IMG/VR virus record: IMGVR_UViG_2778261217_000005
Length of the DNA stretch: 21,722 nt
DNA from: a virus
Taxonomy: Duplodnaviria; Heunggongvirae; Uroviricota; Caudoviricetes
Strand: one strand, 5' to 3'
The notes under the pieces are model-generated. The model was not told the origin of the DNA, made no database searches, and worked only from the letters and a program-made list of their open reading frames with translations. Within the stretch, counting starts at the first letter, position 1. Each line of letters starts with the position of its first letter. Below are positions 18,304 to 21,722 of this stretch, piece by piece. Both the position numbers and the translations under genes were made by a program.

Positions 18304-18440
18304 AATCTTAACTACAATATGATTTATTTTGATGATTGTTTCATAAGGAACAGTGAAGTAAGATCTAAGAGGAGTTAAATTTTATACAGTATAATCATAA
18401 TATTGCAGCAAGGTGGTTATAATTGAAAGAATATTTAGAT

Positions 18441-19898
18441 ATGAATACATCTCATGTAAGAGTTGTTACTCATATGTGTGGGTTCCTGGTTTGGCTCTAT
18501 AGTCTTTCAATGTTGCCACCAATGGTTGTAGCATTGTTTTATAAAGAAAAAAGCCTGTTCGTTTTCTTTATAACCTTCGTTATATTTTTTTGCATTGGTG
18601 GCGGAGCGTGGTATACAACTAAGAAATCTGGCATTCAATTACGTACCCGTGATGGGTTTATTATAATTGTAATGTTTTGGATTTTGTTTTCTGTTATTAG
18701 TGCATTCCCTTTATGGATTGACTCAGAACTTAATTTAACGTTCATTGATGCTCTTTTTGAAGGGGTTTCTGGAATAACAACAACAGGAGCAACTGTAATT
18801 GATGATGTTAGTTCATTACCTCGGGCATATTTGTACTATCGGTCACAGTTAAATTTTATAGGTGGTTTAGGAGTTATTGTTCTGGCGGTTGCTGTATTGC
18901 CATTATTGGGTATTGGTGGTGCAAAGCTTTATCAGTCAGAAATGCCGGGGCCATTTAAGGATGACAAACTCACTCCCCGCCTGGCCGATACGTCACGGAC
19001 ACTGTGGATAACTTATTCTTTATTAGGTATTGCTTGTATTGTCTGTTATAGACTTGCAGGAATGCCTTTGTTTGATGCTATTTGTCACGGGATTTCCACA
19101 GTTTCGCTTGGTGGTTTCTCAACTCATAGCGAGAGTATCGGATATTTTAATAACTATTTGGTTGAGCTGGTGGCTGGTTCTTTTTCCCTGCTATCGGCTT
19201 TCAACTTCACTCTTTGGTATATTGTTATTAGCAGGAAAACGATAAAACCTTTAATCAGAGATATTGAACTTCGTTTCTTTCTGTTAATAGCCTTAGTGGT
19301 GATCATTGTTACCTCTTTCCAGGTCTGGCATATAGGTATGTATGACTTGCATGGAAGTTTTATTCATTCGTTTTTTCTTGCCAGCTCCATGCTCACTGAT
19401 AATGGTTTAGCTACGCAAGATTATGCAAACTGGCCCACGCACACGATAGTGTTTTTGCTGTTGTCAAGTTTCTTTGGGGGATGTATAGGTTCAACTTGTG
19501 GTGGAATTAAGTCACTTCGATTTCTTATACTTTTCAAACAAAGCAAACACGAGATAAATCAGCTTTCTCATCCCAGAGCGTTGTTGAGTGTAAATGTAGG
19601 AGGGAAGATAGTTACAGATCGTGTAATGAGGTCTGTATGGAGTTTCTTTTTTCTTTATACTCTCTTCACGGTGTTTTTTATACTGGTGTTAAATGGTATG
19701 GGATATGATTTTCTTACATCATTTGCAACAGTGGCTGCATGTATTAATAATATGGGATTAGGTTTTGGGGCTACTGCATCGTCATTCGGAGTGCTTAATG
19801 ACATTGCAAAATATTTAATGTGCATAGCTATGATTCTTGGTCGCCTTGAAATTTATCCTGTTATTATATTGTTTTCAGGTTTTTTTTGGCGCTCCTAA
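18441..19898 (+). CDS. trkG: TrkG potassium uptake transporter (485 aa)
   Basis: MNTSHVRVVTHMCGFLVWLYSL...; multi-pass membrane protein with repeated GG selectivity-like motifs; start at ATG 18441 (track ORF begins at upstream TTG). Confidence 0.85.
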   Translation: MNTSHVRVVTHMCGFLVWLYSLSMLPPMVVALFYKEKSLFVFFITFVIFFCIGGGAWYTTKKSGIQLRTRDGFIIIVMFWILFSVISAFPLWIDSELNLTFIDALFEGVSGITTTGATVIDDVSSLPRAYLYYRSQLNFIGGLGVIVLAVAVLPLLGIGGAKLYQSEMPGPFKDDKLTPRLADTSRTLWITYSLLGIACIVCYRLAGMPLFDAICHGISTVSLGGFSTHSESIGYFNNYLVELVAGSFSLLSAFNFTLWYIVISRKTIKPLIRDIELRFFLLIALVVIIVTSFQVWHIGMYDLHGSFIHSFFLASSMLTDNGLATQDYANWPTHTIVFLLLSSFFGGCIGSTCGGIKSLRFLILFKQSKHEINQLSHPRALLSVNVGGKIVTDRVMRSVWSFFFLYTLFTVFFILVLNGMGYDFLTSFATVAACINNMGLGFGATASSFGVLNDIAKYLMCIAMILGRLEIYPVIILFSGFFWRS

Positions 19899-19984: not shown

Positions 19985-20018
19985 CCCCAGTAGCACTGGC
20001 TGCTGGGGTGCGTTTTAT
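19985..20018 (+). terminator. Candidate terminator downstream of trkG (CCCCAGTAGC-actg-GCTGCTGGGG, one mismatch, then TGCGTTTTATT)
   Basis: Imperfect 10-bp inverted repeat with T-rich tail, 18 bp before the ParB-like start. Confidence 0.35.
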
Positions 20019-20035: not shown

Positions 20036-20830
20036 ATGAGCGAGAAATTAAAGATAGTCTATCGCCCATTACAAGAATTGTCACCGTATGCGCACAACGC
20101 CAGGACGCACAGTACTGAGCAGGTGGCACAACTGGTAGAAAGTATTAAGCAATTCGGCTGGACTAATCCGGTGCTGATTGACGAAAAGGGCGAAATTATT
20201 GCGGGTCACGGTCGTGTTATGGCGGCTGAAATGCTCAAAATGGATTCTGTTCCGGTCATTGTTCTGTCTGGCCTGACGGATGAGCAGAAAAAGGCGTACC
20301 GCTTGGCAGATAATCGCCTACCGATGAATGCTGGCTGGGATGAAGATCTGTTGCGGATGGAGCTGTCGGTCCTAATCAATGCTGATTTTGATGTCTCCCT
20401 GACAGGCTTCGGCCCGACAGAAATTGATGAACTGTTGACGGATGTTTTGCCCGGTACAGGAAATAAGGAGGAGCCGTATACGACGAAAATTGATACGCCT
20501 GTTTATGAGCCGTCGGGCGGTAAACCGGATATCAGTGAACTGTACGACGATACGAAAACTCAGGAGCTGATCAGCCGGATACGTTCGGCGTCCCTTGATC
20601 CTGATATTGAGAAATTCCTCCTGTGTGCGGCAGAACGTCACACAGTGTTTAATTTCAGCAGAATTGCGGACTATTACGCTCATGCCCCCGCTGAAATTCA
20701 GTGCCTTTTCGAGGAGTCGGCGCTGGTGATCATTGATTATCAGCAGGCTATTGAAAATGGATTTGTCCGAATGACGCAGCGCATGGTGGAGATCATGCAT
20801 GGCGGGGAGGAGGAGGAGGAATATGCGTGA
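20036..20830 (+). CDS. ParB-like nuclease (ParB/sulfiredoxin N-terminal domain) protein, YnaK-like, 264 aa
   Basis: N-terminal region with IIAGHGRVMAA motif typical of ParB/Srx fold; C-terminal acidic tail GGEEEEEYA. Confidence 0.75.
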   Translation: MSEKLKIVYRPLQELSPYAHNARTHSTEQVAQLVESIKQFGWTNPVLIDEKGEIIAGHGRVMAAEMLKMDSVPVIVLSGLTDEQKKAYRLADNRLPMNAGWDEDLLRMELSVLINADFDVSLTGFGPTEIDELLTDVLPGTGNKEEPYTTKIDTPVYEPSGGKPDISELYDDTKTQELISRIRSASLDPDIEKFLLCAAERHTVFNFSRIADYYAHAPAEIQCLFEESALVIIDYQQAIENGFVRMTQRMVEIMHGGEEEEEYA

Positions 20831-21524
20831 TGATTTTTGCGCCTTTATTCTGACTCACGGGCGACCGGACAAAGTTCTGACTTACCGGACGTTGCGTCGT
20901 GCTGGCTATACCGGGAAAATTTTTATCGTTGTTGATGATGAAGATAAGACACGGCATCAGTACATGGCTGAATTTGGTGAACAGGTGCTGGTATTTTCCA
21001 AAGCCGATATTGCCAGTCGTTTTGACGAAGCCGATAATTTTGGTGACCGCCGCTCAATTTTTTACGCCCGTAATGCCTGTTTCGACCTGGCAAAACTGGT
21101 CGGGTGTAAATACTTCATTCAGCTCGATGATGATTATCACGAGTTCCAGTTTCGGGTGGATCGCAACTATGACCAGGCCTATTTCCCGATAAGGAAACTG
21201 GATGCGATCCTTTCTGAAATGCTGGCGTATTACGAATCAATACCCGCGCTTTCCATCGCTATGTCGCAGGGCGGGGATTTTCTTGGTGACAATGGCGGCC
21301 ATGCTTCGTGGGTGAAACGCAAGGCAATGAACAGCTTTATCTGTTCGGTTGATCGACCGTTCTCATTCATGGGGCGCATTAACGAGGATGTGAATACGTA
21401 CACGAATCTCGGTCGCTGTGGTGAATTGTTTATGACGATCGGTGCTGTCCAGTTAGGGCAGAAACAGACGCAGAAAAACAGCGGCGGAATGACCGAGCTG
21501 TATCTGGATTCCGGAAGCCGCTGA
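20823..21524 (+). CDS. Hypothetical protein coupled to ParB-like gene (YdaY-like), 233 aa; two DxD-like acidic motifs
   Basis: ATG overlaps upstream stop (ATGCGTGA); SD GGAGGAGGAGGA; motifs VVDDED and QLDDDY; no recognisable methyltransferase motifs. Confidence 0.55.
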   Translation: MRDDFCAFILTHGRPDKVLTYRTLRRAGYTGKIFIVVDDEDKTRHQYMAEFGEQVLVFSKADIASRFDEADNFGDRRSIFYARNACFDLAKLVGCKYFIQLDDDYHEFQFRVDRNYDQAYFPIRKLDAILSEMLAYYESIPALSIAMSQGGDFLGDNGGHASWVKRKAMNSFICSVDRPFSFMGRINEDVNTYTNLGRCGELFMTIGAVQLGQKQTQKNSGGMTELYLDSGSR

Positions 21525-21722
21525 ACAGGCCAGCGCAGCAGCGAGGTCTGCATCCGCAGCGAAGACATCCGAAACGAACGCGAAAGCGTCGGAAACCCGT
21601 GCAGAATCCTCAAAAACGGCAGCGGCATCGTCCGCCAGTTCGGCGGCGTCATCGGCATCATCGGCGTCTGCTTCAAAAGATGAGGCGACCAGACAGGCGT
21701 CAGCAGCGAAGGGTAGCGCCAC
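21493..21722 (+). pseudogene. 5'-truncated internal fragment of a side-tail-fibre (Stf-like) gene, Ala/Ser/Thr-rich; runs off window end
   Basis: Frame +1 reads ...AEQASAAARSASAAKTSETNAKASETRAESSKTAAASSASSAASSASSASASKDEATRQASAAKGSA with no start codon after a stop at 21490-21492; composition typical of the Stf collar region. Confidence 0.5.

What the first reader, a model, noticed from the sequence alone, without database searches (positions are those of the whole stretch)
20036..21524. ParB-like nuclease with translationally coupled partner sharing a poly-Glu/SD overlap
The ParB-like gene ends with GGEEEEEYA, encoded by GGAGGAGGAGGA, which doubles as the Shine-Dalgarno for the partner gene (ATGCGTGA overlap). 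The partner has two DxD-like motifs (VVDDED, QLDDDY) but no methyltransferase motifs. ParB/Srx-domain proteins paired with an enzyme are frequent in phage DNA-modification or anti-defence modules; the function here is unknown.
Basis: partly seen in the sequence, partly recalled or inferred. Interest (0 to 1): 0.5.

Follow-up and report, generated by a model that had tools for sequence, protein, structure and literature searches.

The report
Truncated phage DNA-sugar-transferase gene pair
This is the decayed remnant, in a defective Rac-type E. coli prophage, of a very widespread two-gene phage module: a helper protein with a ParB-type domain, translationally coupled to a glycosyltransferase of a family that puts sugars on DNA. 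Its substrate in phages that make no hydroxymethylated bases is still unknown.

Summary
The sequence observation is real. A 264-aa ParB/Srx-domain gene (20036-20830) ends in GGEEEEEYA. Its purine run lies just upstream of the partner's ATG (20823), and the two genes overlap by 8 nt (ATGCGTGA).

The partner is a GT-A glycosyltransferase of Pfam TAGT (PF20691, E 4e-35). This family contains the T2/T6 DNA glucosyltransferase.

The pair is strongly conserved. A homologue of the first gene lies directly upstream of TAGT in 125 of 127 loci, from Proteobacteria, Bacteroidota, Firmicutes and a haloarchaeal virus. It usually sits just before terS/terL.

- The partner is truncated. Homology to intact copies stops at 21516 (codon 231 of about 290-310). 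There a deletion joined it, out of frame, to codon 345 of the side-tail-fibre gene, removing all packaging, head and tail genes.
- The "ParB" protein has two domains. The obligate TAGT partner is its undescribed C-terminal ~115-aa domain, which also occurs alone next to TAGT in replication modules of large gut phages.

Most likely function in intact phages: helper-dependent glycosylation of phage DNA at the packaging stage. No hydroxymethyl-pyrimidine-forming enzyme accompanies the pair, so the acceptor is unknown. Here the module is a relic.

The parts
19985..20008 (+). Terminator-like GC-rich hairpin followed by a T-run, between trkG (18423-19898) and the ParB-like gene
   Evidence: Pattern scan only. 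trkG is a low-GC insert (31-41% GC, against 47-50% in its flanks).
20036..20830 (+). Gene 1: full-length 264-aa YnaK-type protein with an N-terminal ParB/Srx domain, a linker and a C-terminal partner domain
   Evidence: ORF. PF02195 and phrog_620. The exact sequence is in public data, named 'ParB/Srx family N-terminal domain-containing protein' from E. coli and Shigella sonnei.
20036..20440 (+). N-terminal ParB/Srx nucleotide-binding-type domain plus helical extension (residues 1-135), with GHGR at residues 57-60
   Evidence: AF2 pLDDT is about 81-94 over most of residues 11-130. Foldseek matches CTP/CDP-bound ParB, Noc, KorB and PadC. The profile aligns GHGR with GERR of Noc. It is the same domain subtype as the N-terminus of phage and type II DNA methyltransferases (phrog_498 at 3.1e-50; PADLOC MTase_II at 6e-38).
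20462..20803 (+). C-terminal TAGT-partner domain (residues ~143-256). Its motif is Y-T-x-K-I-x-x-P-x-Y-x-P (residues 148-159, nt 20477-20512), then FLxxAAxRHxxFxFxxIAxYY...QxLxExSALVIIDYxxAIxxG.
   Evidence: It is conserved across phyla more strongly than the N domain. It occurs alone as ~130-aa ORFs next to TAGT. It has no Pfam, NCBIfam, PADLOC or PDB match above threshold.
20804..20821 (+). Purine run GGGGAGGAGGAGGAGGAA. It encodes G-E-E-E-E-E of gene 1 and offers Shine-Dalgarno registers for gene 2.
   Evidence: Sequence. Purine-rich acidic tails are conserved at this position in homologues, and the number of GAG copies varies between E. coli copies.
20823..20830 (+). 8-nt overlap ATGCGTGA (start of gene 2, stop of gene 1)
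   Evidence: Sequence. 8- or 11-nt overlaps occur in 37 of 38 distinct junctions.
20823..21516 (+). Gene 2 remnant: residues 1-231 of a TAGT-family GT-A glycosyltransferase. DDED lies at nt 20934-20945 and the DxD motif DDD at nt 21126-21134.
   Evidence: PF20691 at 4.2e-35 and phrog_842 at 1.2e-86. 100% identical over this part to the intact 310-aa P0003 'GREB1-related protein'. AF2 model and fold matches.
21514..21516 (.). Deletion junction with 3-bp microhomology GAA
   Evidence: Identity to intact Rac ends at 21516. Homology to the side-tail-fibre gene begins at 21514.
21517..21524 (+). Out-of-frame tail of the fusion: the rest of codon 232 (first base at 21516), codon 233 and the stop, read as Ser-Arg-stop
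   Evidence: Sequence comparison with L001.
21514..21722 (+). 5'-truncated side-tail-fibre (stf) gene fragment. It starts at the equivalent of codon 345 and runs off the window.
   Evidence: 95-97% identity to stf genes of lambdoid phages. The position within stf of phage PhiR29_1 is given.

Best explanation
What is shown:
- The window is a Rac-type cryptic lambdoid prophage of E. coli/Shigella.
- Gene 1 encodes a two-domain helper. Its N-terminal ParB/Srx domain is of the subtype that phages fuse to DNA methyltransferases. A disordered linker follows, then an undescribed ~115-aa helical C-terminal domain.
- Gene 2 is translationally coupled to gene 1 by an 8-nt overlap. It is a GT-A glycosyltransferase of the TAGT family, whose characterised members add sugars to modified bases in DNA.
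- In intact relatives the pair lies at the head of the late packaging operon, directly before terS, terL and the portal gene.

What is inferred:
- In an intact phage the helper docks or activates the transferase on double-stranded phage DNA. The precedent is a phage ParB-like protein that activates a thymine dioxygenase on dsDNA.
- Progeny genomes would thereby be sugar-modified, using a nucleotide-sugar donor, shortly before or during packaging. This would protect them from host nucleases.
- The acceptor group is unknown, because these phages encode no enzyme that makes hydroxymethyl-pyrimidines.

What is shown for this window: the module is dead. A deletion with 3-bp microhomology cut gene 2 at codon 231 and removed every gene from there to codon 344 of stf.
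For: Identity and context:
- Window 1-21516 is collinear with Rac (intR, recET, trkG) at 98.7% identity.
- TAGT membership is shown, and the GT-A fold. The invariant R14, D102-D104 and E188/D189 fit the R...DDD...ED motif reported for phage GT-A DNA glycosyltransferases (bioRxiv 10.1101/2023.12.21.572611).
- The T2/T6 DNA glucosyltransferase belongs to PF20691.

Conservation of the pair:
- The pair is adjacent in 125 of 127 loci, with overlapped stop and start codons.
- It is present in isolated phages c5, phi jlb1, HHTV-2, NTR1 and Vibrio jumbo phages.
- Downstream genes are terminases of several unrelated Pfam families, plus portals. The link is therefore to packaging as a process, not to one shared ancestral gene block.

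Second context:
- The C-domain alone occurs with one to three TAGT paralogues inside replication modules (PolA, DnaB, primase, clamp, RecA).
- Sugar-nucleotide and tailoring enzymes lie beside or fused to TAGT: UDP-glucose dehydrogenase and epimerase, NTP-transferase, SAM methyltransferase, sulfotransferase and a P-loop kinase-like domain.

Precedent:
- The N domain is homologous to the ParB module of DNA methyltransferase fusions.
- ParB176 has the same layout (NBD, linker, CTD) and is required for 5mYOX176 activity on dsDNA (PMC13229309).

Truncation.
Against: - No DNA modification has been measured for any phage carrying this pair, as far as the searched literature shows.
- No Tet/JBP was reported among the families listed for the three genes either side of the pair in about 50 diverse loci; only the 25 commonest of 51-55 matched families are shown.
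- In the complete 31.8-kb genome of phage c5, the largest protein annotated as hypothetical is 209 aa. Every biochemically known TAGT acceptor (5hmC, 5hmU, glucosyl-5hmC) is therefore missing.
- One TAGT-domain protein, GREB1, glycosylates a protein rather than DNA (PMC7968844).
- In ParB176, mutation of nucleotide-binding residues did not abolish activation. The Box II arginine is also not conserved in some Bacteroidota versions here, so an NTP-switch mechanism is uncertain.
- No ParB-TAGT fusion protein was found among the best 150 cluster representatives.
- The C-terminal halves of both AF2 models have low confidence.
Confidence: 0.55

Rival explanations
1. The transferase glycosylates a protein, not DNA. 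The acceptor could be a virion or packaging protein, a host protein, or the helper itself. Gene 1 has an invariant Tyr/Thr/Pro-rich motif in a disordered linker that could be an acceptor or a docking peptide.
For: - GREB1, a TAGT-domain protein, O-GlcNAcylates ER-alpha (PMC7968844).
- The fold search returns the self-glucosylating glycogenin among GT-A matches.
- The motif Y148-x-x-K151-x-x-x-P155-x-Y157-x-P159 is invariant and lies in a segment with pLDDT below 50.
- No hydroxymethyl-base source exists in these genomes.
- The pair is located next to morphogenesis genes.
Against: - The phage members of the family with known activity act on DNA.
- The helper's N domain is the one fused to DNA methyltransferases.
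- The alternative genomic context is the replication module, not the structural module.
- The glycogenin match is weak (TM about 0.3) and shared with many GT-A enzymes.
Confidence: 0.2
2. The pair is a packaging accessory. The ParB-like protein would recognise or process the pac/cos region for terminase, and the transferase would play a secondary or regulatory role.
For: - The pair sits immediately upstream of terS/terL in most loci, with unrelated terminase types.
- In phage c5 it is the first gene pair after the cos site.
- Burke et al. 2021 (PMC8256090) report that Aravind and co-workers suggested ParB proteins direct DNA-modification machinery to specific sites during packaging.
- Deletion breakpoints cluster within gene 2, which could reflect a cut site.
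Against: - The C-domain/TAGT module also exists without the ParB domain and far from terminases, in replication modules.
- Many phages with the same terminase families lack the pair.
- c5 has its own HNH endonuclease next to cos.
- A glycosyltransferase has no known role in terminase function.
Confidence: 0.1
3. The pair is a prophage 'moron' that benefits the lysogen, for example superinfection exclusion or defence by modifying incoming DNA or a cell component.
For: It lies next to the trkG moron in a long-resident prophage that is common in E. coli. Gene 1 has stayed intact here even though the phage is dead.
Against: - Neither the TAGT protein nor the C domain matches any PADLOC defence model. 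The only hit is the ParB module of a methyltransferase.
- The pair occurs in phages with no annotated integrase (c5) and in large virulent-type gut phage contigs.
- It sits in the late operon.
- The transferase gene decays freely in E. coli: there are many truncated forms, and K-12 has lost it entirely.
Confidence: 0.05

Closest known systems
T2/T6 beta-glucosyl-HMC-alpha-glucosyltransferase (Pfam PF20691, TAGT)
   Same: Same Pfam family, and PHROG 842 carries its name. It is a GT-A enzyme encoded by a phage and acts on DNA after replication.
   Different: The T-even enzyme adds a second glucose to glucosyl-5hmC, which is made by a dedicated dCMP hydroxymethylase pathway. PMC13390438 places its gene at the position syntenic with T4 beta-gt. 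The sources read here do not mention a ParB or C-domain partner for it, and this was not examined here. It was too distant to be found by tblastn at 1e-10. The present subfamily has an extra conserved C-terminal ~60 residues and an obligate upstream partner.
Kinetoplastid base-J glucosyltransferase (JGT) and animal GREB1
   Same: RefSeq and UniRef name the intact protein 'GREB1-related'. Phage GT-A DNA glycosyltransferases match T. cruzi JGT structurally, with the R...DDD...ED motif.
   Different: JGT needs 5hmU made by JBP dioxygenases, and GREB1 modifies a protein. Neither has a ParB-type partner. Direct similarity to JGT was not tested here because the AlphaFold DB library was unavailable.
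ParB-dependent phage thymine dioxygenase (ParB176 with 5mYOX176; O'Toole et al., PNAS 2026, PMC13229309)
   Same: A phage ParB-like protein with an NBD, a disordered linker of about 35-50 aa, a C-terminal domain and no classical DNA-binding domain. It is encoded next to a post-replicative DNA-modifying enzyme. Terminases and glycosyltransferases are frequent neighbours.
   Different: The client enzyme here is a glycosyltransferase, not a dioxygenase, and no dioxygenase is present. Whether the two C-terminal domains are homologous could not be tested because no sequences were available. Dependence of TAGT on the helper is inferred, not shown.
ParB-domain DNA methyltransferase fusions of phages and type II systems (phrog_498; PADLOC MTase_II)
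   Same: Residues 3-141 of gene 1 match their N-terminal module at 3e-50 and 6e-38.
   Different: In those proteins the ParB module is fused to the catalytic domain. Here it is fused to a non-catalytic-looking helical domain, and the enzyme is a separate, translationally coupled protein.
E. coli K-12 YnaK (b1365), 'ParB-like nuclease domain-containing protein', Rac prophage
   Same: Same gene at the same position after trkG. The first ~85 residues are identical in sequence context.
   Different: K-12 YnaK is an 87-aa stump and K-12 has no TAGT remnant at all. ydaY is unrelated. The window keeps the full 264-aa gene and 231 codons of TAGT.

Membership tests
Pfam PF20691 TAGT (TET-associated glycosyltransferase) | Profile score above the curated gathering threshold | tested here: met
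   122 bits against a cut-off of 27.5, covering profile positions 4-205 of 205. The best viral structure matches are TAGT proteins with TM 0.7.
Pfam PF20691 TAGT (TET-associated glycosyltransferase) | GT-A fold with a DxD metal/nucleotide-sugar motif and the R...DDD...ED active-site pattern | tested here: met
   The AF2 N-terminal core has pLDDT above 90. Foldseek matches GalS1, SpsA, glycogenin and GpgS. R14, D102-D104 and D189 are invariant and E188 nearly invariant. All of these residues are retained in the window copy.
Pfam PF20691 TAGT (TET-associated glycosyltransferase) | Association with a TET/JBP dioxygenase or another source of hydroxymethyl-pyrimidine | tested here: not met
   No Tet_JBP among the Pfam families listed for about 250 neighbouring ORFs of about 50 diverse loci; only the 25 commonest families are shown. 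None in the complete c5 genome or in the Rac window.
Pfam PF20691 TAGT (TET-associated glycosyltransferase) | Complete enzyme of the subfamily (about 285-310 aa with a conserved C-terminal region) | tested here: not met
   The window copy ends at residue 231. It lacks T232, Y233, K235, S236, F237, Y238, M241, P244, S245, R258, H260, H261, W265 and K279.
Pfam PF20691 TAGT (TET-associated glycosyltransferase) | Transfer of a sugar to DNA | not testable with these tools
   Needs biochemistry or nucleoside mass spectrometry.
ParB/Srx superfamily (PF02195) | Profile match and ParB/Srx fold with the Box II GxxR motif | tested here: met
   29.3 bits against a cut-off of 26.3. phrog_620 at 3.5e-89. 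GHGR aligns with GERR of Noc. Foldseek matches CDP/CTP-bound ParB.
Partition ParB (ParABS; TIGR00180) | Full ParB architecture (NBD, HTH and dimerisation domains) scoring above the family cut-off, with a ParA partner | tested here: not met
   TIGR00180 scores 38.1 bits against a cut-off of 58.45 and covers only the N domain. No ParA-type family appears among the families listed for neighbouring genes. The C-terminal domain is unrelated by sequence to any solved ParB.
'ParB-like nuclease' | Nuclease activity | not testable with these tools
   This is a name inherited from annotation. No catalytic motif was tested.
ParB-activated DNA-modifying enzymes (ParB176/5mYOX176 type) | ParB-like protein with NBD, disordered linker and CTD, encoded beside a post-replicative DNA-modifying enzyme | tested here: met
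   Domain layout from the AF2 model. Adjacency in 125 of 127 loci. Description of ParB176.
ParB-activated DNA-modifying enzymes (ParB176/5mYOX176 type) | The client enzyme is a 5-methylpyrimidine dioxygenase whose activity depends on the ParB | tested here: not met
   The client is a glycosyltransferase. Dependence on the helper cannot be tested here.
Rac cryptic prophage of E. coli | Synteny intR-recET-...-lysis genes-trkG-ynaK at high nucleotide identity | tested here: met
   Window 1-21516 matches Rac regions of E. coli genomes at 98.7% identity.

The most novel reading that the evidence does not exclude
The helper/TAGT dyad is a self-sufficient two-protein system. It would attach sugars directly to unmodified DNA (a canonical base, the backbone or the ends), or to a still unknown universal acceptor, with no hydroxymethyl-pyrimidine precursor. 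The undescribed ~115-aa C-terminal domain would be a new kind of obligatory cofactor for DNA glycosyltransferases, found in viruses of both bacteria and archaea.
Probability: 0.25. Interest if true: 0.75.

Novelty: new variant of a known kind. Interest (0 to 1): 0.45.

Why it matters
Phage DNA glycosylation is a main route of escape from restriction and CRISPR. So far it is understood only where a hydroxymethylated base is made first.

The helper/TAGT pair is very common. The TAGT profile finds about 1,500 clusters at 50% identity, and about 900 of 5,426 complete E. coli genomes carry an intact copy. It spans bacterial and archaeal viruses, and it comes without any such precursor enzyme.

If it modifies DNA, it defines new chemistry. 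It would also be a second example, after the ParB-dependent thymine dioxygenases, of an accessory protein that licenses a DNA-modifying enzyme. If it modifies protein, a large 'DNA glycosyltransferase' annotation class in phage genomes is wrong.

For this window the practical point is smaller. The ORF pair is a relic, and RefSeq naming (an 'incomplete ynaK' beside a 'GREB1-related protein') hides both the intact helper gene and the truncation of the enzyme.

Tried and rejected
- My recollection that K-12 ydaY is the remnant of the partner gene was wrong. K-12 homology to intact Rac ends at ParB codon ~85, and YdaY is unrelated.
- I looked for natural ParB-TAGT fusion proteins as evidence of physical coupling. 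None appear in the best 150 representatives. The long forms are P-loop kinase-like, methyltransferase, sulfotransferase or tandem-TAGT fusions.
- Sequence searches of solved structures found no homologue for TAGT or for the C domain. The only hits were chance helical matches such as FadA and armadillo repeats.
- Pfam gives only repeated sub-threshold hits of the C domain to PF23887 (E about 0.03). I treat this as a lead, not a finding.
- The PADLOC defence models gave no membership.
- Iyer et al. 2013, the source of the TAGT and ParB-targeting ideas, could not be read. I cite it only through Burke 2021 and O'Toole 2026.
- The literature on HHTV-2 said nothing about DNA modification.
- I considered a Pin-family invertase quasi-site as the cause of the breakpoint cluster, because of the AACC-TA-CGTT core. 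The right-hand partner sequences show no matching half-site, so the idea is unsupported.
- The AlphaFold DB fold search for JGT/GREB1 similarity was unavailable.
Full report
**Observation**

The ORF at 20036-20830 encodes 264 aa ending ...MHGGEEEEEYA. The purine run GGGGAGGAGGAGGAGGAA (20804-20821) contains the quoted GGAGGAGGAGGA at 20806-20817. It offers GGAGG registers 3, 6 and 9 nt before an ATG at 20823. The stop codon of gene 1 (20828-20830) lies inside ATGCGTGA, which gives an 8-nt overlap. RefSeq starts the intact homologue at the same ATG (L001 9924 = window 20823). The motifs VVDDED and QLDDDY are present.

**Where the window comes from**

Window 1-21516 is collinear, at 98.7% identity, with the Rac prophage of many E. 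coli genomes, including intR, recE, recT, ydaU and trkG. In better-preserved copies the gene order is lysis genes, trkG, ParB-like gene, 310-aa 'GREB1-related protein', a 69-aa ORF, terS, terL.

trkG is a low-GC insert (31-41% GC against 47-50% in the flanks). A terminator-like hairpin follows it at 19985-20008.

In K-12 MG1655 the same position holds only an 87-aa YnaK stump, and the transferase gene is gone.

**The partner gene is truncated**

Nucleotide identity to intact copies ends at 21516. Homology to lambdoid side-tail-fibre genes begins at 21514. That point corresponds to codon 345 of stf in phage PhiR29_1. The junction therefore has a 3-bp microhomology (GAA) and is out of frame, so the ORF closes after Ser-Arg-stop at 21524.

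The window copy keeps residues 1-231 of a protein that is 285-310 aa long everywhere else. It has lost a region with 15 invariant positions, among them T232, Y233, K235, F237, Y238, P244, S245, R258, H260, H261 and W265. The deletion also removed terS, terL and all head and tail genes up to stf codon 344.

The exact 233-aa product occurs on two public contigs, so the junction is real.

**What the partner is**

- It matches Pfam PF20691 (TAGT) at 4.2e-35 (122 bits; cut-off 27.5) and PHROG 842 at 1e-86.
- An AlphaFold2 model of the intact protein has mean pLDDT 73, and above 90 over most of the first 150 residues.
- The model matches GT-A glycosyltransferases in the PDB only distantly (E about 1e-4, TM about 0.35). 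It matches predicted phage TAGT proteins closely (TM 0.7).
- No solved structure is related by sequence.
- The T2/T6 beta-glucosyl-HMC-alpha-glucosyltransferase belongs to PF20691 (PMC13216743 and PMC13390438).
- Phage GT-A DNA glycosyltransferases share an R...DDD...ED motif (bioRxiv 10.1101/2023.12.21.572611). Here this corresponds to the conserved R14, D102-D104 and E188/D189.

The family is large. A profile search of 1.84 billion cluster representatives gave 1,506 hits at E <= 1e-3 and 714 at E <= 1e-30.

**Is the pair conserved?**

Yes, very strongly. In 127 loci that encode a relative of the transferase, an ORF homologous to gene 1 lies directly upstream on the same strand in 125. The other two loci have no upstream sequence. 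The loci comprise 80 viral contigs, 45 species-representative genomes and 2 E. coli genomes.

The hosts include Enterobacterales, Desulfobacterota, Bacteroidota, Firmicutes, Veillonella, Saccharibacteria and others. Isolated viruses with the pair include Lactobacillus phages c5 and phi jlb1, Nocardia phage NTR1, Vibrio jumbo phages and the haloarchaeal virus HHTV-2.

Among 38 distinct junction sequences that could be parsed, 31 have the 8-nt overlap and 6 an 11-nt overlap. All are preceded by purine-rich codons for an acidic tail. The poly-Glu/SD arrangement is thus one instance of a conserved design. The number of GAG repeats varies between E. coli copies.

**Surroundings**

The three genes downstream of the pair in about 50 diverse loci are dominated by small and large terminase subunits of several unrelated Pfam families and by portal proteins. 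The families include Terminase_6N, Terminase_3, GpA, TerL_ATPase, Terminase_2, GP3_package and Sf6-type.

In the cos phage c5 the pair is ORF1/ORF2, starting 90 nt after the cos end.

Upstream genes are heterogeneous and belong to lysis, recombination and replication functions. No Tet/JBP dioxygenase appears among the families listed on either side. In the complete 31.8-kb c5 genome, the largest protein annotated as hypothetical is 209 aa.

**Gene 1 has two domains, and the C-terminal one is the constant partner**

Residues 1-135 form a ParB/Srx domain.
- Pfam PF02195 is just above threshold.
- The AF2 model is confident over this region.
- Foldseek matches CDP/CTP-bound ParB, Noc, KorB and PadC.
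- GHGR aligns with GERR of Noc.
- The domain is not a partition ParB: TIGR00180 is below its cut-off.
- Its closest relatives by profile are the N-terminal modules of phage and type II DNA methyltransferases (phrog_498 at 3e-50; PADLOC MTase_II at 6e-38).

A disordered linker at residues 136-169 carries an invariant motif, Y-T-x-K-I-x-x-P-x-Y-x-P.

Residues ~170-255 form a helical region with the signature FLxxAAxRHxxFxFxxIAxYY...QxLxExSALVIIDYxxAIxxG.

Across phyla this C-terminal part is better conserved than the ParB domain. In a second class of loci, the ~133-aa ORF directly upstream of the transferase aligns only to residues 140-256 of gene 1 and has no ParB domain.

A profile of the C domain retrieved 3,167 proteins. 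The best 120 are all stand-alone 126-193-aa proteins with no Pfam annotation.

Three of these were examined on 75-123-kb gut-metagenome contigs. Each lies in a replication module (DnaB, primase, PolA, clamp-like, RecA) together with two or three TAGT paralogues. In one case CofD-like and nucleotidyltransferase genes are also present.

The C domain has no significant match in Pfam, NCBIfam, PADLOC or the PDB.

**Further context pointing to a tailored glycan on a polymer**

TAGT genes in this set are followed by UDP-glucose dehydrogenase plus an epimerase/dehydratase (L126), or by a radical-SAM enzyme (L127). They are duplicated in tandem (L103). In other cases they are fused to SAM methyltransferase, sulfotransferase or P-loop kinase-like domains.

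**Mechanism**

Shown:
- a GT-A transferase of a DNA-glycosylating family;
- a translationally coupled helper;
- a position in the late packaging operon, or alternatively in the replication module;
- a helper N domain of the kind fused to DNA methyltransferases.

Precedent: O'Toole et al. (PNAS 2026, PMC13229309) showed that a phage ParB-like protein with the same layout is required for a thymine dioxygenase to act on double-stranded DNA. That layout is an NBD, a ~50-aa disordered linker, a CTD and no classical DNA-binding domain. They found glycosyltransferases, ParBs and terminases to be the commonest neighbours of such enzymes. According to Burke et al. 2021 (PMC8256090), Aravind and co-workers had suggested earlier that ParB proteins direct modification machinery to DNA during packaging.

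Inferred: in intact phages the helper docks or activates the transferase on phage dsDNA, so that genomes are glycosylated before or during packaging.

The weak point is the acceptor. All known TAGT acceptors need a hydroxymethyl group that these phages cannot make. The rivals are protein glycosylation (as by GREB1, PMC7968844) and a role in packaging itself.

In this window the question is moot, because the enzyme is truncated and the phage is defective.

**Comparison with known systems, and novelty**

Both genes belong to named families and are annotated in RefSeq, so the window contains nothing new as a sequence. At family level, the dyad differs from every characterised DNA glycosylation system in two ways. 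It lacks a precursor-forming enzyme, and it requires a small undescribed partner domain.

The co-occurrence of GT-A enzymes with ParB and terminases has been noted only in passing. The survey of ParB-fold proteins does not mention glycosyltransferases. I therefore class it as a new variant of a known kind, of moderate interest.

**Side observation**

Deletion breakpoints in E. coli copies of the transferase gene cluster tightly. At least nine different junctions, leading into tfa, stf and other sequences, fall within 14 nt around TTCCGGAACCTACGTTA. Of about 14 distinct fusion proteins that break at or after codon 231, 12 break in codons 231-234.

Of 949 complete E. coli genomes with a match to the 400-nt probe spanning the site, 869 are intact across it. 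The window's junction is one member of this cluster. The cause is unknown.

Noticed in passing
window 21513-21527 (equivalent to L001 10614-10631): There is a deletion-breakpoint hotspot inside the transferase gene. At least nine different junctions, to tfa, stf at several points and other sequences, fall within 14 nt of ...GGATTCCGGAACCTACGTTA.... Twelve of about 14 distinct E. coli fusion proteins break in codons 231-234. The site contains the 8-bp palindrome TTCCGGAA followed by TAAAAGTTTTTA. The cause is unknown; a terminase cut site and an invertase quasi-site were considered, and neither is supported.
   Followed up: partly
window 20804-20821: The (GAG)n run that encodes the acidic tail of gene 1 varies in copy number between E. 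coli copies (three to five Glu codons). It is a short trinucleotide-repeat polymorphism lying exactly in the ribosome-binding region of the downstream gene.
   Followed up: partly
window 18423-19898 and 19985-20008: trkG is a low-GC insert (31-41% GC) between the lysis genes and the packaging region. A terminator-like hairpin follows it just before gene 1.
   Followed up: partly
L001 9137-9394; L002 6137-6394: RefSeq annotates the first 258 bp of an intact 264-codon gene as 'ynaK, incomplete, missing C-terminus'. This is apparently because the K-12 reference protein YnaK is itself an 87-aa stump. The full ORF is open in these genomes.
   Followed up: yes
L134 6001-10631; L135 5105-7387; L136 4254-7351: Large gut-metagenome phage contigs (75-123 kb) carry the stand-alone C-domain gene with two or three TAGT paralogues inside the replication module. 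In L134 it is followed by CofD-like (PF01933) and NTP_transf_3 genes, which hints at a phospho-linked decoration of the glycan.
   Followed up: partly
L126 6844-9104; L127 6860-7819; proteins P0250, P0256, P0282, P0298, P0266, P0289, P0303: TAGT is followed by UDP-glucose dehydrogenase plus an epimerase/dehydratase, or by a radical-SAM enzyme. In other cases it is fused to SAM methyltransferase, sulfotransferase or N-terminal P-loop (GxxxxGKS) kinase-like domains.
   Followed up: partly
NC_021340.1 (HHTV-2) genes 21-22, about 11.9-12.8 kb: The helper/TAGT pair is present in a haloarchaeal tailed virus, at 43% identity to the E. coli enzyme. The module therefore crosses the bacterial-archaeal virus divide.
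   Followed up: no
L121 5285-6011: In one Phascolarctobacterium contig the ParB N domain and the C domain lie on two separate overlapping ORFs. This could be a natural split or a frameshift.
   Followed up: no
L132 and L133, right flanks: Some trkG-ParB-TAGT remnants are flanked on the right by ABC-3/ZnuA-type metal transporter genes instead of the pinR-ynaE-uspF-ompN flank seen in L131 and L002. The module therefore also sits in a prophage at another chromosomal site, or the right flank has been rearranged.
   Followed up: no
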